Virus record (IMG/VR): IMGVR_UViG_3300002920_000044
Span: 19,344 to 83,343 of that record
Strand: one strand, 5' to 3'
DNA length: 64,000 nt
Source: a virus
A program made the translations under genes and the position numbers. Every line of letters begins with the position of its first letter. The stretch's first letter is position 1. The notes beneath the pieces were generated by a model. The model saw only the letters and a program-made list of their open reading frames with translations, was not told the origin of the DNA and did no database searches. Positions 26,927-35,951 of the stretch are shown in pieces.

Positions 26927-28270
26927 ATGAAGGTCAACGACATTTTCAATGAAACTACTACGTCAGGTTCAATTGCTTCTGTATCAGTACCTATGTCTAT
27001 ACAAAAGCGCAATAAAGTTGGCACAGGGGTATATGACAATACTAAATTTGGAAATTTATTGACTGGTAAAATTTCTAAGAAGAAATATGCCAACTCACTA
27101 AAAGAATACACCGGGGAAACCTTTAGAGTTCAGGTTACTACAAATAATGGTGAAGTATTTACATATTCGGTCAAAGCAGACAACCGAGAACAAGCTTTAA
27201 AGAAAGTTTGGCAACGCGCAAATAAGAGTGGTTATGGCGATTTTCAACTAAAGATTCTTGAAGAAAATATTATAGCCGAAGGCAAGGTAAAAGAATTATC
27301 TAAGGATATAAAGAATAGGAGCAACAATAACATGAAAAAAAAGTATATGAAGTCAAAAGAACAGATAAAATTCAATCTAAAAGCACCCAAGCAAAAGACA
27401 AATGAAAGCACCGAACAAGTTACCATCATGTATGATAGAGACTCTCTTTTTAATGATATTACTGGTGTAATGAAAGATACTGTTGCTAAATTCAAACATT
27501 ATGCATCAAGTAAAACCTTTACAGTCCCTTCCGCTCCAGACACTTCTAAGTTCCTGGCAGTAAAGGACAGCATGATTGACATACAAAGAAAAGTACCTGC
27601 AGGTCCTGTGTGTGAGTATGATATATTTTTGCGAATAGGTGCAGCCCTTCCATTAGAATTGCGCAGAAAAATTAAAGAATACTTCTTAGAGAGATTAGGA
27701 AACAATATTGGAATAGACTTACCCAGGGTATTTATAACTAATGACGGGTATGAAATGATGTTCAGCGAAAAGAATGGAACAAGTTGGGGAGGGTTTGGTT
27801 ACATTACTCTAGGCAAGGTCAAGAAATCAAACGAAACTAAGCCAGACGAAGAAGACAAGATTATTTCCCCAGGTAAAGGAAAAAAGCTTAAGACAGGATT
27901 ATATAAGCCCGGACAAAAAAAGAAGCTAAGTTACTTTAAACACCCGTTCAAGAGTTCGGGTGTTCATGTCAGTGATAGCAGGGGCAACAAGGTCTGTGAG
28001 TGCGAAAACGAAGACATAGCCAAAGAAGTCGCCAAAGCACTTAATAAGTATGTCAAGATTGATGAAAATATAAAAAGAGTAGGAGCCTACAACACCAAAG
28101 GTGGGATACTTAAGCTATTAAAAAGTGAACGCGACCCAATGCAATATTTTCTAGTTAACCCAAAAGGTGAGGTAGTTAGGCAGTTCAGGGGCACTGAAGA
28201 CGAAGTTAAAAAACAAGTTCAACAGGATATCAAATCAACTATTATACATGAAAATAAAAGGAAGAAATAA
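26927..28270 (+). CDS. Modular putative head-internal protein with capsid-targeting-like leader
   Basis: MKVNDIFNE|T; internal SLKE, ILEE, IIAE, KTNE, KIDE and IIHE sites; late motif at 26896. Confidence 0.5.
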   Translation: MKVNDIFNETTTSGSIASVSVPMSIQKRNKVGTGVYDNTKFGNLLTGKISKKKYANSLKEYTGETFRVQVTTNNGEVFTYSVKADNREQALKKVWQRANKSGYGDFQLKILEENIIAEGKVKELSKDIKNRSNNNMKKKYMKSKEQIKFNLKAPKQKTNESTEQVTIMYDRDSLFNDITGVMKDTVAKFKHYASSKTFTVPSAPDTSKFLAVKDSMIDIQRKVPAGPVCEYDIFLRIGAALPLELRRKIKEYFLERLGNNIGIDLPRVFITNDGYEMMFSEKNGTSWGGFGYITLGKVKKSNETKPDEEDKIISPGKGKKLKTGLYKPGQKKKLSYFKHPFKSSGVHVSDSRGNKVCECENEDIAKEVAKALNKYVKIDENIKRVGAYNTKGGILKLLKSERDPMQYFLVNPKGEVVRQFRGTEDEVKKQVQQDIKSTIIHENKRKK

Positions 28271-28271
28271 C

Positions 28272-29345
28272 ATGAGTTCAATAATGAAGGGTCTTGTAAG
28301 AGAAGATCCTAGATACACATGGCCCGAAGATAATTTATATTCAGCAAGGCAAGCCCAGATATTCAAGGATTTGGGCGATGGTTATTATCTTGGTGATGAT
28401 AGTTATAAAGATGATGATGGCTTTACCAAGGAAGGGTATACTGTATATCACAAAGAAGGTGAAGACCAGTTTCGTCAAGTAAGCTATGTATCAATGAGCC
28501 CATATGACAATCCTCCAGGGCACATAGAAAGAGAGATTGAAAAAATTATTCAAAAGGATAAGAGCAGGCTAAACGAAAATAAGCGTATTATAGGCCATGA
28601 CGCCAAAGATCCTCAAATTGCAGTCAAGGGGGGCGCTGGCAGTTATACCCTATCTGCATTGAAAAAGAAGGCGTTAGGAGAGATAAAGGCACTTGTTGCT
28701 GATGTTCAAGCAGGCAAGTTTAAAGTTGCAGCATATAACGTCAACCAGCTCAAGAATACATTAGAAACCATCGCCGAAGCTGAAGATGAAATGGAAAAGA
28801 GTTATTTTAACGAAAACTCAAACTGTAAAAACTATAAACAACCTGGCATGAAGAAAAAGAACAGCAAAACAGTTTCTAACTATGTTCCAAAAAAGTCAGT
28901 TCAAGAAGTTGCTGATACTAGAACTACTGCCAACCAAACTGGAGGTTTCATCACTCCTGAATACGATAAAGCATATGCAACTCTTAAGGTCAAAGCACCA
29001 GAGTTATATAATTATATTCGCAACGAGGCGCCTGTTCCATTAGATCCGATAATGACATTACAGGCATTACAGCATATGGGAAGTGAAAGAGCAGTCATGA
29101 ACATGATTAAGCGCGAGCTTGCTAAAGACACTGAGAGAATGTATGATAAGAACCACCCTGCATTAGCTGAGAATATTAGGCGCTTAATGAGAAATATTAT
29201 TAGAGAAGCAAAAAAGAAAGGTATAGACGGCAAAGCATGTTGGGACAGGTATCGTTATGCCGGCACTGAAAAGGGTAAGGATAAGTGCATTCCCGTACGT
29301 AAAAAGACTAAAGAAAGCTCTGTCATAAAAGGAACTAGACGGTAA
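28272..29345 (+). CDS. Modular putative head-internal protein
   Basis: Probable start MSSIMKGLVRE|D at 28272; internal RLNE, YFNE, SVQE, ALAE and IIRE sites. Confidence 0.5.
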   Translation: MSSIMKGLVREDPRYTWPEDNLYSARQAQIFKDLGDGYYLGDDSYKDDDGFTKEGYTVYHKEGEDQFRQVSYVSMSPYDNPPGHIEREIEKIIQKDKSRLNENKRIIGHDAKDPQIAVKGGAGSYTLSALKKKALGEIKALVADVQAGKFKVAAYNVNQLKNTLETIAEAEDEMEKSYFNENSNCKNYKQPGMKKKNSKTVSNYVPKKSVQEVADTRTTANQTGGFITPEYDKAYATLKVKAPELYNYIRNEAPVPLDPIMTLQALQHMGSERAVMNMIKRELAKDTERMYDKNHPALAENIRRLMRNIIREAKKKGIDGKACWDRYRYAGTEKGKDKCIPVRKKTKESSVIKGTRR

Positions 29346-29348
29346 CTA

Positions 29349-31205
29349 ATGAACCTAGGTGACTTTGACACCACAATAACAGAAGCCCCCATGAATCCCA
29401 ACGAGTTTGCCAAGGCAATTGAAGTTGGGCAAAGTGAGGGGGTTTTGGTTGGTTACGAGTTTGAGATAGGTATTCCTGCCGCTTATTCGGGTGGCTACAG
29501 AACAACAAAAAAACTAGCTAGTCAAATAAAAACTACACTCAATACTAAAGTAAAGATTTTTGATGTTACTCATCAACATTCTAAAAAGCTTGACATATGG
29601 TACATTGAACCAGATGAAAGTTTACAAACCCAAGATTCCAAGGACGTAGCTCTTGAAGTAGTTACTACTCCCATGCCTCCCCGAGAAGCAGTGCAAGTGT
29701 TGAAAAGTTTCTATCAGTTAGCTAAGAGTAACAATTTTTATACTGGCAAACAATATTCAACTGGATTACATATCAATGTAAGTATACCGAAAACTCTAGA
29801 TGTATTAAAGTTAGCTTTATTTTTGGGTGACGAATATTTGTTAAAGCTATTTGATAGGGAAGATATTAAATATGTTTGGTCTTTAAAAAAAGAGGTAGAA
29901 GATAACCTAATAAGTGGCGATGACTTTGTAGAGACCAATACCAAGAAAAAAGGAAAAAAGATATTGGCTACGCAGAATGCCATTGATTTGGAAAAACTTA
30001 AAGCCATAGCCAATAAAATATCAGATGATCACTATGCTAGTATTAATTTCAGCGGTAAGTATGTTAGCTTCAGACATGCAGGCGGTGATTATTTGAATGA
30101 CTACGACAATGTGTTGAATGTAGTAGGTAGATTTGTAAGAGCCATGATCATTGCAAGTGATCCTGAACTTTATAAAAATGAGTATATGAAAAAGTTGTCT
30201 TTGTTAGTGTCTAAGACACAAACTCCTAGAATTAAAGACATTGATAAGGCTAAAGAGTATTTGAAGCTATTGCAATTTATAAAAACTAACGGATATCCGG
30301 TAGTAGTAGCTAGTTCGTTGTTTGGTGTAAGCAAACAAGAAGTTTTTAATGGTATACCTGGTGAATTATTGCAAGCACTACATATATTATACAGGACTAA
30401 TAATTATAAACGTGACACTAGTGTTAAAGCCAAAAAGTTTGCTAAACAAAATATTTTGAACTATTATTCATCTATGTTATCAGCAGATTCTAAGTTAATG
30501 AAAATGTATAATGATGCCACGTTATTGGGTGCAAGCCTTACATATATGGTTTGTCCAGCTGACTCTTTAGCACAAACAATCCAAATATTAAATTCTATGG
30601 AGTTTCCTTTTAAAGGCACGTATTATTATAATAATGATTGGGCGCCGATTTACCATGTTGAATATTTTCCTTTGAACCATCCACTAGTTAGCGATAGTTA
30701 TAAAAAAATAACCCGAGACTATAAAGAATATATGGATAAGGCACGCCAGGGCGATTATGTTAATGAAGACAAACAAGCACCAATCTACTACTTTTCTTAC
30801 GGTATGCTAACTGATTCAGACTATTTGCCAGGTGCAGAATTGATGGGTGTAGCAGAATTGAGAAACTTCGAGTTTACTATGTATGCATATGCCAATGTCG
30901 AACCAAAAACGGGAAGCAAGGTATATGGTGCCTTGTGGAAACTAGATAAGAATTTGCTGTCATCACTAGACCAAATTGAAGATTATCCAGAATTATATGA
31001 CCGCAGAACTTACCCAGTTTATATGGATGGGAAAAAATACCCAGCAGAAGTTTATTTGATGACGCCAAGAACGCTTGAATATATCAGTAACACAGTGCCT
31101 ACACAACAGTATATCAACACTGTACTAAAAGGCTATAAAAATGCAGGAATTCCAATTAGCCAGTTGTATGATGCTCTTGATTTCAATACTACGAATAAAT
31201 ATTAA
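29349..31205 (+). CDS. COOH-NH2 amidoligase (Amidoligase_2-like) fused to C-terminal gamma-glutamylcyclotransferase (AIG2/GGCT)
   Basis: Ligase: VGYEFEI, IEPDESL, LEVVTTPM, TGLHINVS, YASIN, VSFRHAGG. GGCT: YFSYG..., VYGALW, LDQIEDYP.LYDR, AEVYLM. Confidence 0.78.
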   Translation: MNLGDFDTTITEAPMNPNEFAKAIEVGQSEGVLVGYEFEIGIPAAYSGGYRTTKKLASQIKTTLNTKVKIFDVTHQHSKKLDIWYIEPDESLQTQDSKDVALEVVTTPMPPREAVQVLKSFYQLAKSNNFYTGKQYSTGLHINVSIPKTLDVLKLALFLGDEYLLKLFDREDIKYVWSLKKEVEDNLISGDDFVETNTKKKGKKILATQNAIDLEKLKAIANKISDDHYASINFSGKYVSFRHAGGDYLNDYDNVLNVVGRFVRAMIIASDPELYKNEYMKKLSLLVSKTQTPRIKDIDKAKEYLKLLQFIKTNGYPVVVASSLFGVSKQEVFNGIPGELLQALHILYRTNNYKRDTSVKAKKFAKQNILNYYSSMLSADSKLMKMYNDATLLGASLTYMVCPADSLAQTIQILNSMEFPFKGTYYYNNDWAPIYHVEYFPLNHPLVSDSYKKITRDYKEYMDKARQGDYVNEDKQAPIYYFSYGMLTDSDYLPGAELMGVAELRNFEFTMYAYANVEPKTGSKVYGALWKLDKNLLSSLDQIEDYPELYDRRTYPVYMDGKKYPAEVYLMTPRTLEYISNTVPTQQYINTVLKGYKNAGIPISQLYDALDFNTTNKY

Positions 31206-31219
31206 TGTAGGATTATATT

Positions 31220-31663
31220 ATGCTAACAGAAACTCTTAAAGTATTATTAGCTACAAGTTATAGCTTTGCTATCAAGGCTCAAAATTTTCATTGGAATTGT
31301 GAGGGCCCAGACTTTCCACAGTATCATAAATTTTTTGGTGATATTTACGAAGAAGTGTTCAACAATTCAATTGACCAGTTAGCCGAGTATGTTAGAATAC
31401 TTGGTAGCTATACTCCGGGAAGCTTTACTAGAATGATAGAGTTGTCCAAAATTGAGGACCAACTTCTTATTCCCAGAGCCGAACTAATGATTGCCGAACT
31501 TTATCAGGATAACCAGATTCTTCTTGAATTGTATAAAGAAGCGTTTCATGTCGCCGAACAAGCAGACGAGCAGGCTATTTGTGATTTTTTTGCTAGCAGA
31601 ATTAACGCACACGGTAAGTGGGGTTGGCAACTTAGAAGTACCTTAAGCAAGTCAAGAGCGTAA
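31220..31663 (+). CDS. dps: Dps/ferritin-like DNA protection protein
   Basis: KAQNFHWNCEGPDFPQYHKFFGDIYEE...DQLAEYVRILG...HGKWGWQLRS. Confidence 0.88.
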   Translation: MLTETLKVLLATSYSFAIKAQNFHWNCEGPDFPQYHKFFGDIYEEVFNNSIDQLAEYVRILGSYTPGSFTRMIELSKIEDQLLIPRAELMIAELYQDNQILLELYKEAFHVAEQADEQAICDFFASRINAHGKWGWQLRSTLSKSRA

Positions 31664-32467
31664 TTATTTTTCTTTTCCGTCTGCTAATCCTTCGTCTGGG
31701 TTAATACAAGTTTGCATTAACATCTCAACTTTAACTAATGCTTTTTTGCGAATTTGCTCACTATCTAAAATATCCCCAAGATAGATATACTGTGGCTTGT
31801 TACTATAGAACTTGGCTACTTCGCTATCATTTGATATACTAACTACGGCATCTGGAGAAAGCTTCATGTCCTTTATACATTCAATATCCCTCATAGTGTC
31901 TGGGTAGTTCTTCAATACCCACCCGTCAAGTGTGATTGTTTCACTTCTAACTAACTCAGCAACTTGATTGTGTTTGCTAGCATCAATCTTTTCTTTCTTG
32001 GCAAGTGTAATTGGGTCAATAAGTTTAATTTCATAGGTCTTTGCTAGATATTCGGCAATACCATGTTTATCGTCTAATACAATAATTTTAGGGGGAACTA
32101 CCCTCTCAGCACTGTCTGATTCGAACCCTATTTCTTCTAAGAAGACAGGCAACTCACTATAACAGTTTGGGCCGCGCACAACTTGAATGTGCAATTTTTC
32201 TTGAAGTTCTTGTTCATCGCCAGTTGTCTTGCCAGGTATTATCAATACATTGACACCTTCTATATCACCAATTTGTTTGTAAATAATTGATACGTCAAGC
32301 CATGCAGCAACCTCTACATCCAAAACTCTAATCTTATATGTAAAATCTTGCGGGTTTATAGCTTCAAGAACTCTTTGTAATCCTTTTGCAGCCAGTTTTC
32401 CTGTAACAAATATTACCTTACTGTTTTTTTCAGGTCTATATTCGTTAATAAGTTCTTCAACTATCAT
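31664..32467 (-). CDS. DUF6513-like domain fused to a degenerate adenylate-kinase-like domain
   Basis: IFVTGKLA...VLEAINPQDFTY.IRVL.V.VAAWL...LIIPGKTTGD...L...VVRGP resembles the N-domain of methanopterin-type DHPS-like proteins. GWVLKNYPDT...PDAVVSI resembles ADK GWILDGFPRT but lacks a P-loop. Confidence 0.55.
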   Translation of the reverse strand: MIVEELINEYRPEKNSKVIFVTGKLAAKGLQRVLEAINPQDFTYKIRVLDVEVAAWLDVSIIYKQIGDIEGVNVLIIPGKTTGDEQELQEKLHIQVVRGPNCYSELPVFLEEIGFESDSAERVVPPKIIVLDDKHGIAEYLAKTYEIKLIDPITLAKKEKIDASKHNQVAELVRSETITLDGWVLKNYPDTMRDIECIKDMKLSPDAVVSISNDSEVAKFYSNKPQYIYLGDILDSEQIRKKALVKVEMLMQTCINPDEGLADGKEK

Positions 32468-32532
32468 AATGATTATTCCTTATTATTATTTAGTTTCAGA
32501 GATAAATACTTAGTATATTTAAAAGGACGATT

Positions 32533-35001
32533 ATGCGAGCAAAAGAGTTTTTATTGTCTACTTCGCCATTAAACTTATTTGAAGTAAAAATGAGTCCTGC
32601 TAATCTTAAAAAACTGACCTCTACTATTGATGCTAAGGTTGGTATTGAATTTGAAATGGCTTTCCCCCAGATAGAAAAATATGATGATGAATACTATGAA
32701 CCTGATTACGATTATGACGCAAGTTTATATTCAATTGAGGATGTCGTAGATTTTTTTAGTCAGGGGGGCGTTAACTCTAGGGATGATATTAATGCACTGA
32801 AGCGCAATCTAATGCAAGAAGTAGATGAAAAACGTCAGGAGCTAATATTAGAACTTTGGGATGATGAAGCTGATGAGTTCTTCCCAGACTGGGTAAGAGA
32901 TAATGTTCCAGAAGAAGTTGTTAGCAAGTTTGTTGGTAAAGAACCAGACTTATTTGGGGAAACAGTTCCTACTAAAGAAGATTGGGATAAATTCATTGAA
33001 CATGAGACGAAGGAACAAGGAGATTACTGGGAAAAGGCTAAAGAAGAATTCATTGAATTACACCAAGATGATCAAGATTATCTAGAAGATAGAATTCTGT
33101 CAAGTCTAGGATATGAGTATATGACAGATATTCATAGTAATTTTGGTATCGAGTGGCCATTCTTAACCACTGTGGCATCTTATTTTGAAGGAATCCTAGA
33201 AGATTTGGCAACATCCTTAGAAGAAGCAGTAGAACGTAAGGTAAGATATTCGTCTGGATATCATGAGTTAACAAAGGATGATAAAAGCTATGTAATTGAA
33301 ACTGACAGTAGTATTAATGGTGAGGGCGGTATAGGCTTAGAAATTGTAAGCCCTCCTATGTCAATTGACGAAATGCTTGAAGATATCAAAAAAATAAAAA
33401 AATGGGCAGATGAACATAATGCTGTTACTAATAAGTCTACTGGGCTTCACATCAATGTAAGTGTTCCTGGATATAAAAAGTCTCAATTAGATTTAACCAA
33501 GCTTACATTACTAGTTGGTGACAAGTATATTCTTAAAAAGTTTGACAGAATTGCCAATGATTATGCTGCATCGGTATTTGATAAGATATTGACAAACACC
33601 ACTGAAGTTGACCAGGAAATATTCTTTAGAAATCTCAAGGGCAAAATGAATGGAATTAGTGCTAAGCTATTCTCAGGTGACGGGTTCGGCAAATATTCAA
33701 GCATTAACCCACGACAAGGATGGGTAGAATTTAGAAGCCCTGGCGGTGACTGGCTTAACAAAAGCAAACAAGAAATTGAAGACACTATTAGACGTTTTGT
33801 TATAGCATTGGATGCTGCTGTTGATCCATCTAAGTACCAAAAAGAATACCTAAAGAAACTAACCAAAGTATTTTTGCCCTCGTCTGGGTCAATTGAAGAA
33901 TTATTTATCCAATATGCAGCTGGCGCAATAACCAAAACTGAGTTGAAGAAAGAATTGCAAAAAGTTAGAGAAAAAACTAGCAATAAAAAATTCCTCGAAA
34001 AAGGAATTATATTTGTTGAGTATAATCAAATAAAAAAAGGTGACTGGATTATTGAACAACCTATTCCTGGTAGTTTCACATATTCTCGTGCATATCTCAG
34101 GAAAACAGCCGAAATTAATTCACCAGAAAAAGCACAAAATGCAGTTCTTGAATCTATGCCAAATTCGTTTGATGCTAAGAGAATTGAAGAAATCACTGTG
34201 ACTGAGTATGATGGGTTTCATATATTTGTTATTCATGAAAGAGGTCTTCCTTTCATATCGAACAAAAAATATCATAGAGCTACCCCTGCACAAGCTCAAG
34301 AATTTTTTTATAGAGAACACCCGGAGTTTAGAAGTTTAGACCTCGTGGCCAGTCGTGATAGAGACCTTAGGCGTCTTGAATCTAACAAAGAGTTGCTTAT
34401 CAAAGGACAAACTGTTTACGTCGTAGTTGATTATTCCGATTCTATTCCATATGCTAATGTTATTAGTGGAGTCTCACCAGAACACGCTGAGTTACGTGCA
34501 AGGTTCTATCTTTTTATTTATGATAAAGACGCTAGTGTGATACCTATTCAAGAATTTAACAAAGATTCTCCTGACAATGATGAAACTAAGTTAAAAATGT
34601 ATAGTATCAGGTATATTAATCACCCTTATTATGTGTATAATGTTTTCGCCACAAGCAAAAAACAAGCCGCCTTAATACACAAACTACTAAATGAGAACAA
34701 AAACGATGTTATGTTCATAATAGAGTTCCCCCAACAAATCATATATAAAATGAAACGTTTTATTGAAGAACAAGTAAAAAACCTCATGGAAGTTGGAGTA
34801 TTCTTTAATCCTGAGAACGGTAATTTGAGTAGGTATGACCCTAACAACCTGATTAGGTTTAGGTCTACTTATCAAGATGGCCCTACCAAACGACAAATAA
34901 ATGTTTTTGCTAACAATATTGAGCAAGCTGAAGTTTTGGCAAGAATAAAATATGATTTAGAGCCCACAGATAAATTAGATATTGAGAGAGTTGATCATTG
35001 A
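32533..35001 (+). CDS. COOH-NH2 amidoligase (Amidoligase_2-like) paralogue with acidic insertion and long C-terminal extension
   Basis: VGIEFEM, IETDSSI, GLEIVSPPM, TNKSTGLHINVS, KYSSINP and VEFRSPGG. Confidence 0.78.
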   Translation: MRAKEFLLSTSPLNLFEVKMSPANLKKLTSTIDAKVGIEFEMAFPQIEKYDDEYYEPDYDYDASLYSIEDVVDFFSQGGVNSRDDINALKRNLMQEVDEKRQELILELWDDEADEFFPDWVRDNVPEEVVSKFVGKEPDLFGETVPTKEDWDKFIEHETKEQGDYWEKAKEEFIELHQDDQDYLEDRILSSLGYEYMTDIHSNFGIEWPFLTTVASYFEGILEDLATSLEEAVERKVRYSSGYHELTKDDKSYVIETDSSINGEGGIGLEIVSPPMSIDEMLEDIKKIKKWADEHNAVTNKSTGLHINVSVPGYKKSQLDLTKLTLLVGDKYILKKFDRIANDYAASVFDKILTNTTEVDQEIFFRNLKGKMNGISAKLFSGDGFGKYSSINPRQGWVEFRSPGGDWLNKSKQEIEDTIRRFVIALDAAVDPSKYQKEYLKKLTKVFLPSSGSIEELFIQYAAGAITKTELKKELQKVREKTSNKKFLEKGIIFVEYNQIKKGDWIIEQPIPGSFTYSRAYLRKTAEINSPEKAQNAVLESMPNSFDAKRIEEITVTEYDGFHIFVIHERGLPFISNKKYHRATPAQAQEFFYREHPEFRSLDLVASRDRDLRRLESNKELLIKGQTVYVVVDYSDSIPYANVISGVSPEHAELRARFYLFIYDKDASVIPIQEFNKDSPDNDETKLKMYSIRYINHPYYVYNVFATSKKQAALIHKLLNENKNDVMFIIEFPQQIIYKMKRFIEEQVKNLMEVGVFFNPENGNLSRYDPNNLIRFRSTYQDGPTKRQINVFANNIEQAEVLARIKYDLEPTDKLDIERVDH

Positions 35002-35462: not shown

Positions 35463-35951
35463 ATGAAGAACTTTGTATTTGCAGCCGTAGCTGCTACTGT
35501 GGCCTTTGCTGCAACACCTGCAATGGCCGACAACTCAAACTTTACCGGCCCTCGTGTGGGTCTAACTGCTGGTTACGATGATGTAACTGGTTCTTTTGAT
35601 GCCAACGATGTAGTATATGGTGCTGATGTTGGTGTTGATCTTCCGGTTGGTGAAAACGTTGTTGTTGGACTTGAAGGCACTGTAACTAATGTCTTTGAAG
35701 ACACCCGTACTTTTGGTGTTGGTGCTCGTGCTGGCTATACCGTAACTGACAACCTTATGCCTTTCGTTCGTGTTGGTTGGGCAAACTATAGTGATGTTCT
35801 CAATGGTGACCTCAACGGTGTAACTGTTGGTGGTGGTCTTGAGTATGCACTTAACAGCGCAATCTATACCAAGGTTGAATATCGTTACAGCGATTTTGAA
35901 AAGGGCGTTGGTAATCACGGCGCACTTATCGGGGTAGGAATTAGGTTCTGA
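35463..35951 (+). CDS. Outer-membrane 8-stranded beta-barrel (porin/opacity-like) with signal peptide
   Basis: Signal peptide MKNFVFAAVAATVAFAATPAMA; alternating G/hydrophobic strands; C-terminal VGIRF (terminal Phe, BAM signal). Confidence 0.85.
   Translation: MKNFVFAAVAATVAFAATPAMADNSNFTGPRVGLTAGYDDVTGSFDANDVVYGADVGVDLPVGENVVVGLEGTVTNVFEDTRTFGVGARAGYTVTDNLMPFVRVGWANYSDVLNGDLNGVTVGGGLEYALNSAIYTKVEYRYSDFEKGVGNHGALIGVGIRF

What the first reader, a model, noticed from the sequence alone, without database searches (positions are those of the whole stretch)
29349..35001. Amidoligase-GGCT fusion plus a second amidoligase: a possible write/erase glutamyl-tagging system
Two glutamine-synthetase-fold COOH-NH2 ligases with intact motifs (E.E, D.S, E..SP/TP, GLHIN, EFR/SFR) lie 1.3 kb apart. 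One is fused to a gamma-glutamylcyclotransferase, which removes gamma-glutamyl groups. The fusion junction reads DYVNE|DK, a candidate prohead-protease site that would separate ligase from eraser in the capsid, and both ligases carry the leader. Such ligase/GGCT pairs have been proposed to add and remove peptide tags, but their phage substrates are not established. Delivery at injection would point to immediate modification of host proteins, peptidoglycan or a small molecule.
Basis: partly seen in the sequence, partly recalled or inferred. Interest (0 to 1): 0.78.

Follow-up and report, generated by a model that had tools for sequence, protein, structure and literature searches.

The report
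Leader-tagged amidoligase pair in jumbo phage
A fragment of an uncultured giant T4-related phage encodes two ATP-dependent amide-bond-forming enzymes, one fused to an enzyme that breaks gamma-glutamyl bonds, and both carry a short T4-like "load into the head, then cut" tag, so they are probably carried in the virus particle and delivered with the DNA; what they modify is unknown.

Summary
ORF 29349-31205 (618 aa) is an Amidoligase_2 (glutamine-synthetase fold) domain, an unassigned middle domain and a gamma-glutamylcyclotransferase (GGCT) domain. ORF 32533-35001 (822 aa) is a paralogous amidoligase with an acidic insert and five C-terminal beta-beta-alpha repeats. Catalytic motifs are invariant across hundreds of homologues.

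The ligase/GGCT link recurs as C-terminal fusions, N-terminal fusions and split genes. Ligase1-Dps-ligase2 synteny is conserved in a 244-kb relative.

The packaging idea gained support:
- 322 of 369 homologues start with a MRAKEF-type leader like T4's MKTYQEFIAE.
- 271 of 275 have [ILV]-x-E just before the ligase domain.
- Five of five large relatives encode a T4 gp21-type prohead protease.
- In cultured Atu_ph07 the only Amidoligase_2 protein, gp196, has the leader and appears in the published virion proteome with 14 peptides.
- In Atu_ph07 the leader is enriched among virion proteins.

Cleavage at DYVNE|DK is plausible (Glu fixed five residues before the GGCT start) but unshown. A write/erase cycle on one substrate is speculation, because Atu_ph07 and RsoM2USA have the ligase and no GGCT.

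The Amidoligase_2/AIG2 association is already known. The scan has noted T4-like leaders on other jumbo-phage DNA before. Verdict: a new variant of a known kind, of moderate to high interest.

The parts
29349..31205 (+). P0001, 618 aa: leader + Amidoligase_2 + middle domain + GGCT
29349..29384 (+). Leader MNLGDFDTTITE (aa 1-12), ending in I-T-E. Candidate propeptide and capsid-targeting tag.
   Evidence: Conserved in homologues. T4 Alt is cut at ITE-6 (PMC5694885).
29385..30218 (+). GS-fold carboxylate-amine ligase domain (aa 13-290). Motifs: E37, E39, E87/D89/S91, E103, H141/N143, S240-F-R242. Lacks the ~120-aa insert that most homologues have after strand 1.
30222..30746 (+). Middle alpha/beta domain (aa 292-466). 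No convincing structural match.
30753..30779 (+). Linker DYVNEDKQA (aa 469-477) with V-N-E473. Candidate prohead-protease site. Low pLDDT.
30780..31205 (+). GGCT/AIG2 domain (aa 478-618) with the Y483-G-M loop and E544
31220..31663 (+). Dps/ferritin-like protein (147 aa). Sits between the two ligases in G004 and downstream of the ligase-GGCT gene in L005/L006; no leader.
31664..32467 (-). DUF6513-domain protein (267 aa). Inserted between the ligases in this genome only.
32533..35001 (+). P0002, 822 aa: leader + Amidoligase_2 with acidic insert + C-terminal repeats
32533..32583 (+). Leader MRAKEFLLSTSPLNLFE (aa 1-17), ending in L-F-E
   Evidence: M1, L15 and E17 are nearly invariant in 68 homologues
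32665..33177 (+). Acidic, mostly helical insert (aa 45-215) between strand 1 (GIEFE) and the rest of the ligase core
34030..34998 (+). Five beta-beta-alpha repeat units (aa about 500-820). Fold not assigned.

Best explanation
These are two paralogous ATP-dependent carboxylate-amine ligases of the Amidoligase_2 family (glutamine-synthetase fold). They belong to a T4-related (Rak2/Atu_ph07-like) jumbo phage. One is fused through a flexible linker to a catalytically intact gamma-glutamylcyclotransferase.

Both begin with a short propeptide of the T4 capsid-targeting type (M-R/K/N-x-x-D/E-F/L/I ... [ILV]-x-E).

Most likely course of events:
1. Both proteins are made late.
2. The leader recruits them to the prohead core.
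3. A gp21-type prohead protease trims them after the leader's Glu. For the fusion, it possibly also cuts after E473, releasing the GGCT.
4. They are kept in the mature head and ejected with the DNA, like T4 Alt.
5. In the next host, using host ATP, the ligases form an amide (most likely gamma-glutamyl-type) bond on a host amine, on a protein or a small molecule. The GGCT cleaves gamma-glutamyl-amine or gamma-glutamyl-amino-acid bonds in the same pathway.

Shown here: domain identities, motif conservation, the recurrent ligase/GGCT linkage, conservation of the leader, a protease in relatives, and virion presence of a homologue.

Inferred: packaging of these two proteins, the cleavage sites, ejection, the chemistry and the target.
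For: Enzyme identity:
- Pfam and PHROG hits.
- Structural matches: GGCT Z 16.6, GS Z about 11.5.
- Invariant catalytic motifs.

Functional linkage of ligase and GGCT:
- GGCT is C-terminal in P0001 and P0005-P0015, and N-terminal in P0016-P0055.
- GGCT is a separate gene in 4 of 5 large relatives.

Conserved pair:
- Ligase1-Dps-ligase2 synteny in G004.
- Both families occur on the same contigs.

Leader:
- 322 of 369 homologues start M-x(2,3)-[DENQ]-[FILVM], consensus MRAKEF.
- 271 of 275 have [ILVFM]-x-E before the domain, against about 65 for interior windows of equal length.
- T4 CTS is MKTYQEFIAE (PMC8442874). Targeting depends on residues 4 and 7, processing on residues 8 and 10 (PMC9026906).
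- T4 Alt is processed at ITE-6 and LTE-619 (PMC5694885).

Protease and capsid in relatives:
- Peptidase_S77 (gp21) in 5 of 5 large relatives.
- gp23-like capsid proteins with L-x-E about 22 residues before the conserved core.
- Atu_ph07 gp204 is a gp21 homologue.

Experimental support from a relative:
- Atu_ph07's single Amidoligase_2 protein is gp196, identified by gene order and by computed mass 57.93 kDa.
- It starts MRWQDISSKKLTE.
- It is listed in the virion proteome with 14 unique peptides and 30.2% coverage (PMC6102473 Table S5).

Leader against virion proteome in Atu_ph07:
- The pattern fixed beforehand hits 43 of 126 virion proteins against 101 of 697 other ORFs, p = 7e-7.
- The strict pattern hits 21 of 126 against 7 of 697. 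Without the gp54-64 paralogues it is 10 of 115 against 7 of 697, p = 2e-5.
Against: - The window's own 100-kb record (CheckV 29% complete) has no prohead protease or capsid gene, so the head module is inferred from relatives.
- No proteomic data exist for this phage or for any GGCT fusion.
- The Atu_ph07 virions were only PEG-purified. The list also holds terminase, RecA-like, SSB and RNR at 1-4 peptides, so some entries are contaminants.
- gp196 shares only about 30% identity with these proteins.
- The strict leader pattern was written after seeing the Atu_ph07 list. With a conservative background, the pre-set pattern gives only p = 0.014.
- Within this genome the leader is not clearly enriched: 4 observed against 1.1 expected.
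- [ILV]-x-E is not depleted inside the family.
- Some relatives carry leaderless stand-alone GGCTs.
- P0001 has Ser in place of the Glu of the GS E-x-R strand.
- Donor and acceptor substrates are unknown.
Confidence: 0.55

Rival explanations
1. Cytoplasmic, non-packaged enzymes. This would be the known Amidoligase_2/AIG2 (GGCT) gene-neighbourhood system, acting in the infected cell to build or edit a peptide-like metabolite or cell-envelope peptide (for example, to block superinfection). The N-terminal motif would be only a structural cap of the ligase domain.
For: - Secondary sources describe phage amidoligase/GGCT cassettes as proposed peptidoglycan-modification or superinfection-exclusion systems (PMC5498523; PMC11318856).
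- Neighbours here and in relatives include envelope-type proteins: an OMP beta-barrel at 35463-35951, and GH19, CsgF and CsgG in L005.
- Stand-alone GGCTs in relatives have no leader.
- The residues after the leader (A/V-x-M-N/S-P..F) are part of the domain's first helix.
Against: - The leader also precedes GGCT when GGCT is N-terminal, and precedes a stand-alone 169-aa GGCT (P0250). It is therefore a module independent of the ligase fold.
- The same leader sits on unrelated neighbouring proteins here and in L005.
- The homologue gp196 is well represented in Atu_ph07 virions.
- The podovirus cassette partners GATase_6 and COOH-NH2_lig are absent from G000-G004.
Confidence: 0.25
2. The fusion is cut at DYVNE|DK inside the prohead. 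This yields a free writer (ligase) and a free eraser (GGCT) that add and remove the same gamma-glutamyl tag on host targets after injection.
For: - Glu at -5 from the first Pro of the GGCT domain, with a hydrophobic residue at -7, occurs in 44 of 62 fused homologues, against a background of about 2% per position. The commonest form is [LF]-x-E|A-G-x-x-P, whichever end the GGCT is on.
- The linker has low pLDDT.
- Leaderless GGCTs start directly at the first strand, so the upstream Glu is not needed for the fold.
- T4 Alt is cut at both ends by gp21.
- P0001 has only three [ILV]-x-E sites. Two lie exactly at the two domain boundaries.
Against: - One subgroup has Ser at -7 (NES[RLA]E-YPE). Another (MRAQEFQPA-PIYYF) has no hydrophobic-x-E before the GGCT.
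- Asp at P1' is unusual among the sites seen here.
- The ligase occurs without any GGCT in Atu_ph07 and RsoM2USA.
- A ligase and a cyclotransferase acting on one substrate would be a futile ATP cycle.
- No evidence names Glu as the donor.
Confidence: 0.2
3. Structural internal-head or core proteins that only descend from enzymes and no longer catalyse anything.
For: - T4 internal proteins are abundant non-enzymatic cargo.
- P0001 lacks the Glu of the E-x-R strand.
Against: - All other metal- and ATP-binding motifs, and the GGCT catalytic Glu, are invariant over homologues that are only 30-45% identical.
- The S-F-R-H variant is itself invariant in its subfamily.
Confidence: 0.05

Closest known systems
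Phage T4 Alt (packaged ADP-ribosyltransferase) and internal proteins IPI-III with the capsid targeting sequence, processed by prohead protease gp21
   Same: - A short N-terminal tag with an acidic-aromatic pair followed by [IL]-x-E (T4 MKTYQEFIAE; Alt cut at ITE-6 and LTE-619).
- An enzyme cargo.
- T4-type gp21 and gp23 homologues in the lineage.
- A homologue found in virions.
   Different: - The cargo chemistry here is ATP-dependent amide ligation plus gamma-glutamyl cyclotransfer, not ADP-ribosylation.
- The leaders are one residue shorter before the E-F pair, often longer overall, and sometimes hold two sites.
- Packaging and cleavage are not shown for this phage.
Amidoligase_2 (PF12224) with AIG2/GGCT gene-neighbourhood systems of phages and prophages (Iyer, Abhiman, Burroughs and Aravind 2009; that paper was not held, so it is known to me from memory and from secondary citations)
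   Same: The same two families, functionally linked. PHROGs 2443 and 2520 are annotated together in prophages.
   Different: - Here the two are fused in either order.
- The proteins are far larger, with extra domains.
- They lie in T4-like jumbo phages and carry a head-targeting-type leader.
phiEco32 / LUZ24 / PSA-HP1 podovirus cassette (amidoligases, class-II glutamine amidotransferase, ATP-grasp, GGCT), proposed to modify peptidoglycan
   Same: Contains Amidoligase_2 and GGCT.
   Different: - GATase_6 and COOH-NH2_lig were not found in G000-G004.
- That cassette lies in the early-gene module in LUZ24-like phages.
- No leader has been reported for it.
Glutamine synthetase-type gamma-glutamyl-amine synthetases, YbdK/GCS2, and the Pup ligase PafA with the depupylase Dop
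   Same: The same fold and the same metal- and ATP-binding strands. VIA Z is 11.6 for GS, 8.7 for the YbdK-like chain 1tt4, 8.3 for Dop and 7.6 for PafA.
   Different: - No sequence-level membership.
- No oligomerisation domains.
- No Pup.
- The substrate is unknown.
Human GGCT (C7orf24) and B. subtilis YkqA
   Same: - Fold match at Z 16.6 and 16.4.
- The YG-x-L loop.
- The catalytic Glu aligns.
   Different: - 24-28% identity.
- Fused to a ligase.
- Specificity is untested (gamma-glutamyl amino acid or gamma-glutamylamine).

Membership tests
Amidoligase_2 (PF12224), GS-fold carboxylate-amine ligases | Profile match above Pfam's gathering score | tested here: met
   P0001 scores 30.2 bits and P0002 scores 35.8 bits; the cut-off is 22. 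The genome search agrees.
Amidoligase_2 (PF12224), GS-fold carboxylate-amine ligases | Glutamine-synthetase catalytic fold | tested here: met
   P0001 residues 14-274 match GS chains at Z 11.4-11.6, rmsd 3.2-3.6 A over 178-191 residues. P0002 matches AFDB 'amidoligase' clusters at E 5e-7.
Amidoligase_2 (PF12224), GS-fold carboxylate-amine ligases | Conserved acidic, His and Arg residues of the metal/ATP site (E-x-E, E..D.S, E, H.N, E/S-x-R) | tested here: met
   These residues are invariant or at least 90% conserved in alignments A1-A3. P0001's subfamily has S-F-R-H where P0002 has E-F-R.
Amidoligase_2 (PF12224), GS-fold carboxylate-amine ligases | ATP-dependent amide-bond formation | not testable with these tools
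   Needs an enzyme assay.
GGCT / AIG2-like cyclotransferases (PF06094, PF13772) | Profile match and fold | tested here: met
   GGACT E 2.4e-13 and AIG2_2 E 1.2e-9. 2i5t at Z 16.6, rmsd 2.3 A over 134 residues.
GGCT / AIG2-like cyclotransferases (PF06094, PF13772) | Catalytic Glu (human E98) and the YG(S) substrate-binding loop | tested here: met
   E544 aligns with E98; the 3cry E98Q chain shows Q at that column. The loop is Y483-G484-M485.
T4-type capsid-targeting propeptide cargo | N-terminal tag resembling the T4 CTS and ending in [IL(V)]-x-E | tested here: met
   P0002 has MRAKEF...LFE17 and P0001 has MNLGDF...ITE12. 322 of 369 and 271 of 275 homologues comply.
T4-type capsid-targeting propeptide cargo | gp21-type prohead protease encoded by the same phage | tested here: inconclusive
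   None in the 100-kb, 29%-complete record. Present in 5 of 5 large relatives and in Atu_ph07 as gp204.
T4-type capsid-targeting propeptide cargo | Protein present in purified virions | tested here: inconclusive
   Shown only for the homologue Atu_ph07 gp196: 14 peptides in PEG-purified virions. No data for this phage.
T4-type capsid-targeting propeptide cargo | Removal of the propeptide by the protease, and ejection into the host | not testable with these tools
   Needs semi-tryptic mass spectrometry and infection experiments.
phiEco32/LUZ24-type peptidoglycan-modification cassette | Co-occurrence with a class-II glutamine amidotransferase and a COOH-NH2_lig/ATP-grasp ligase | tested here: not met
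   PF13522 gave no match in G000-G004, and its control genomes all matched. PF14395 also gave no match, but its controls were silent, so that half is weak.
Pup ligase/depupylase (PafA/Dop) | Closest structural relationship and a Pup-like substrate | tested here: inconclusive
   Dop scores Z 8.3 and PafA Z 7.6, below the GS matches. No search for a Pup-like gene was made.

The most novel reading that the evidence does not exclude
T4-like jumbo phages carry ATP-dependent amide ligases in their heads, in some lineages as ligase-GGCT polyproteins cut apart by the prohead protease. They inject these with the DNA to put a gamma-glutamyl-type amide mark on a host protein or metabolite within seconds of infection. 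This would be a new chemistry for injected phage effectors, alongside Alt's ADP-ribosylation. It would be used by a very large, uncharacterised family: 1392 representative clusters at E <= 1e-10.
Probability: 0.3. Interest if true: 0.85.

Novelty: new variant of a known kind. Interest (0 to 1): 0.62.

Why it matters
Phage amidoligases have been annotated since 2009, yet I found no report of a demonstrated substrate in the papers I could search.

This lineage offers a concrete, testable setting. The enzyme appears to be virion cargo, and a cultured relative (Atu_ph07 gp196) already has proteomic evidence. Its substrate should therefore be a host molecule met immediately after injection.

If confirmed, three things follow:
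- Amide ligation joins the short list of chemistries delivered by phage particles.
- The T4 capsid-targeting rule extends to a large group of environmental jumbo phages.
- The leader becomes a simple sequence marker for predicting their injected proteins.

Tried and rejected
- Megablast of the locus against phage genomes found nothing.
- Iyer et al. 2009 (PMC3268129) is not held. Its proposals are cited only through secondary papers and from memory.
- The jumbo-phage review PMC7824862 does not discuss this family.
- The record behind L005 could not be searched.
- Within-genome enrichment of a strict leader pattern was weak: 4 observed against 1.06 expected, shuffle maximum 4. It is not used as evidence.
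- Depletion of [ILV]-x-E inside the proteins holds only for P0001 (3 against 7.1 expected, P 0.04) and Atu_ph07 gp196. It does not hold across the family, so I rejected it as a general argument.
- The T4 late-promoter word TATAAATA is not enriched in the window (10 against 8.8). Only a one-mismatch GATAAATA lies 25 nt upstream of 32533. I make no claim about timing.
- The P0002 C-terminal repeats and the P0001 middle domain gave no convincing match in PDB, AFDB clusters or the ESM Atlas.
- Stand-alone GGCTs of relatives were checked for the leader and lack it.
- No complex-prediction job was run, because no binding claim is made.

Full report
THE WINDOW

The window is bases 19344-83343 of a 100,163-bp IMG/VR virus record. 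CheckV rates it 29% complete, which implies a genome of roughly 345 kb. GC content is about 36%.

The two ORFs of the finding are real: 29349..31205 (P0001, 618 aa) and 32533..35001 (P0002, 822 aa), both on the + strand and 1.33 kb apart. Between them lie a Dps/ferritin-like gene (31220..31663, Pfam Ferritin E 1.7e-17) and, on the minus strand, a DUF6513 protein (31664..32467).

DOMAIN IDENTITIES

- P0001 matches Amidoligase_2 (residues 34-158, 30.2 bits against a cut-off of 22), GGACT (481-574, E 2.4e-13) and AIG2_2.
- P0002 matches Amidoligase_2 (219-325, 35.8 bits).
- PHROGs gives gamma-glutamyl cyclotransferase (E 3.8e-18) and amidoligase.

AlphaFold models built on alignments of 57 and 68 homologues reach mean pLDDT 87 and 81.

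P0001 has three domains:
- Residues 14-290 have a glutamine-synthetase fold. VIA Z is 11.4-11.6 to GS chains, 8.7 to the YbdK-like 1tt4, 8.3 to Dop, 7.6 to PafA and 6.8 to GshA.
- Residues 292-466 have no convincing match.
- Residues 476-614 match human GGCT at Z 16.6 (rmsd 2.3 A over 134 residues) and B. subtilis YkqA at Z 16.4 (Foldseek).

P0002 gives only GS and 'amidoligase' matches for residues about 215-465. Its residues 45-215 form an acidic helical insert placed after the first catalytic strand. Residues about 500-820 form five beta-beta-alpha units of unassigned fold. Most homologues of P0001 carry a similar insert of about 120 residues, but P0001 and P0009 lack it.

ACTIVE SITES

- E37/E39 (P0002: E39/E41)
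- E87-P-D89-x-S91
- L-E103-V-V-T-T-P
- G-L-H141-I-N143-V-S
- S240-F-R242 (P0002: E399-F-R401)

The Glu-to-Ser change in the last strand is fixed in the whole P0001 subfamily.

In a profile-to-PDB alignment, the GGCT catalytic Glu (E98 of the human enzyme; the E98Q mutant chain 3cry shows Q at that column) aligns with E544 of P0001. The YG(S) loop is Y483-G484-M485. Both activities therefore look intact. Activity itself cannot be tested here.

SIZE OF THE FAMILY AND THE LIGASE-GGCT LINK

An exhaustive HMMER scan finds 2969 representative clusters at E <= 0.001, 1392 at E <= 1e-10 and 212 at E <= 1e-30. Word-indexed searches list hundreds of homologues. Nearly all come from metagenomic contigs, many of them 240-476 kb long.

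The ligase/GGCT association is a Rosetta-stone pattern:
- GGCT is C-terminal in P0001 and its nearest relatives.
- GGCT is N-terminal in many others (P0016-P0055).
- GGCT is a separate small gene in four of five large related IMG/VR records.

The pairing of two ligases is also conserved. In the 244-kb record G004 the order is: 461-aa leader protein, HNH, 475 aa, ligase 1, Dps, ligase 2, 104 aa, OMP-like, 194 aa. This matches the window gene for gene. The differences are that ligase 1 there lacks GGCT, and a leaderless GGCT lies 15 kb away. A 279-kb JGI contig shows similar synteny from DnaJ-ClpB through to the ferritin.

The link is not obligatory. Atu_ph07 and RsoM2USA each have one such ligase and no GGCT.

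The partners of the podovirus phiEco32/LUZ24 cassette were not found in G000-G004. These are class-II glutamine amidotransferase and COOH-NH2_lig. The second of those searches had no positive control.

THE LEADER

Homologues of both families begin M-[RKN]-x-x-[DE]-[FLI].
- 322 of 369 fit M-x(2,3)-[DENQ]-[FILVM], with consensus M-R-A-K-E-F. Many exceptions are truncated sequences or alternative start calls.
- Just before the first helix of the ligase domain ((A/V)-x-M-(N/S)-P..F), 271 of 275 N-terminal ligases have [ILVFM]-x-E. That compares with about 65 for interior windows of the same length.
- P0001 reads MNLGDFDTTITE|AP. P0002 reads MRAKEFLLSTSPLNLFE|VK.
- The cultured-phage homologues read MRWQDISSKKLTE|LK (Atu_ph07) and MKLIQKLSE|LK (RsoM2USA).
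- The leader is a module of its own. When GGCT is N-terminal the leader sits before GGCT (MLLSDFLLE|AGEQP-IYYF), and a second [IV]-x-E precedes the ligase. A 169-aa stand-alone GGCT (P0250) has the same leader.

For comparison with T4:
- The T4 capsid targeting sequence is MKTYQEFIAE (PMC8442874).
- Targeting depends mainly on residues 4 and 7, and processing on residues 8 and 10 (PMC9026906).
- The packaged enzyme Alt is cut by gp21 at ITE-6 and LTE-619 (PMC5694885).

IS A MATCHING PROTEASE PRESENT?

The window's own fragment has none, which means little at 29% completeness.

All five large related records that carry this ligase family (244-354 kb, two of them at least 97% complete) encode a Peptidase_S77/gp21 homologue (E 3e-21 to 5e-29). 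They also encode a gp23-type major capsid protein (E about 1e-99). In those capsid proteins, L-x-E|(N/S) lies about 22 residues before the conserved V-I-L-P-V-I-R-R-V-M-P core. The adjacent scaffold-like proteins are rich in such sites. Atu_ph07 has a gp21 homologue, gp204.

EXPERIMENTAL EVIDENCE FROM A RELATIVE

Attai et al. 2018 (PMC6102473) published an ESI-MS/MS proteome of Atu_ph07 virions.

Atu_ph07 has exactly one Amidoligase_2 match, at 156400-156954. That places it in the CDS at 155929..157431 (AUZ94978.1).

The identification of this CDS as gp196 rests on:
- Gene order: gp195 is 993 nt and the portal gp198 is 1755 nt.
- Computed mass of 57.93 kDa, against 57,94 in Table S5.

Table S5 lists gp196 with 14 unique peptides and 30.2% coverage. 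The portal protein has 20 peptides and the major capsid protein has 10.

I then tested whether the leader predicts virion membership. I matched the Table S5 proteins to ORFs by mass and position, which placed 126 of 140 entries.
- The pattern fixed earlier hits 43 of 126 virion proteins against 101 of 697 other ORFs (p = 7e-7). With a deliberately generous background, p = 0.014.
- Adding a downstream [ILVFM]-x-E gives 24 of 126 against 37 of 697 (p = 1.6e-6).
- A stricter pattern, written after seeing the list, gives 21 of 126 against 7 of 697. Excluding the paralogues gp54-64, it gives 10 of 115 against 7 of 697 (p = 2e-5).

Caveats:
- The virions were only PEG-purified, and the list includes likely contaminants at 1-4 peptides.
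- Identity between gp196 and P0001/P0002 is about 30%.
- The table does not report N-terminal processing.

THE JUNCTION

In P0001 the linker DYVNEDKQA (residues 469-477) has low confidence (pLDDT below 50 at 469-471).

Across 62 homologues with a recognisable GGCT start, 44 have [ILVFMY]-x-E within the 12 residues upstream. Typically the Glu sits exactly five residues before the Pro of P-I-Y-Y-F. The commonest form is [LF]-x-E|A-G-x-x-P, whether the GGCT is N- or C-terminal.

Leaderless GGCTs start directly at the first strand, so the Glu is not needed for the fold.

Against the idea:
- One subgroup has Ser at -7.
- Another subgroup has no such site.
- The sequences are related, so the counts are not independent.

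I rate cleavage at E473 as plausible (about 0.35-0.4) but not shown.

FUNCTION

Shown here:
- Two ligase domains and one cyclotransferase domain that look active.
- A recurrent evolutionary link between them.
- A conserved T4-type leader.

Inferred:
- Recruitment to the prohead, trimming by the protease, and ejection like Alt.
- ATP-dependent formation of an amide bond on a host amine.

A gamma-glutamyl donor is the natural guess, for two reasons. The closest structural relatives are glutamine synthetases and gamma-glutamyl-amine synthetases. The partner enzyme acts on gamma-glutamyl bonds. No residue-level evidence for a glutamate pocket was obtained.

A simple write/erase cycle on one substrate would waste ATP. 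It also fits poorly with ligase-only phages. A two-step or substrate-editing pathway is equally possible.

COMPARISON WITH WHAT IS KNOWN

The Amidoligase_2/AIG2 association is established in the comparative-genomics literature (Iyer et al. 2009). I know it from memory and through PMC5498523 and PMC11318856.

I found no paper linking amidoligases to virions, or T4-type targeting leaders to Rak2/Atu_ph07-like phages. The jumbo-phage review PMC7824862 does not treat this family.

Earlier notes of this scan report T4-like leaders on enzyme clusters in several other jumbo-phage windows, and on this window. They gave me the lead. I tested the claim independently here.

I class the finding as a new variant of a known kind.

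Noticed in passing
window 34030-34998 (P0002 aa ~500-820): Five tandem beta-beta-alpha units follow the ligase domain and are conserved in orthologues. PDB, AFDB clusters and the ESM Atlas gave no match. They may be a substrate-binding or DNA-binding array.
   Followed up: partly
window 31220-31663; also L078:6463-6906 and L005:13972-14412: A Dps/ferritin-like gene lies between the two ligases here and in G004, and downstream of the ligase-GGCT gene in L005/L006 (64% identity). It has no leader. Its link to the ligases is unexplained.
   Followed up: partly
L005:15768-17393, L005:14419-15765 and L005:17433-17756: In a 279-kb relative, a 541-aa GH19 (lysozyme/chitinase-like) protein starts MRANEFIIE. 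Two neighbours start MRALELLLE and MKITDIIKE. CsgF, CsgG and FecR-like genes follow. A muralytic enzyme with a head-targeting-type leader would be unusual.
   Followed up: no
Atu_ph07 (MF403008.1) about 43-51 kb, gp54-gp64: A run of about 11 paralogous 29-56 kDa proteins all start M(R/K)W(E/H/Q/D)QL(T/N)E. All are in the published virion proteome with 3-15 peptides each.
   Followed up: partly
L072-L076 (G001-G005): The gp23-like major capsid proteins are only about 390-398 aa. They have L-L-E sites in the first 20 residues and a conserved L-x-E|(N/S) about 22 residues before V-I-L-P-V-I-R-R-V-M-P. This suggests a short (about 40-aa) propeptide.
   Followed up: no
window 26927-28270 and 28248-29345: The two ORFs upstream of P0001 have no family match. 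The first starts MKVNDIFNE. Its counterparts in L005 (460 aa, Sigma70_r4 hit) and G004 (461 aa) start MKIHELKE and MKIKDIYE.
   Followed up: no
window 32501-32508: GATAAATA, one mismatch from the T4 late-promoter word, lies 25 nt upstream of the P0002 start. Exact TATAAATA is not enriched in the window.
   Followed up: partly
PMC6102473 Table S5, gp196: Peptides of the 57.9-kDa gp196 were found in gel slices 1-4, with the peak in slice 2, above the 66-kDa portal (peak in slice 3). They were also found in the lowest slice, 13. This could reflect anomalous migration of an acidic protein (pI 4.45) plus a small fragment.
   Followed up: no
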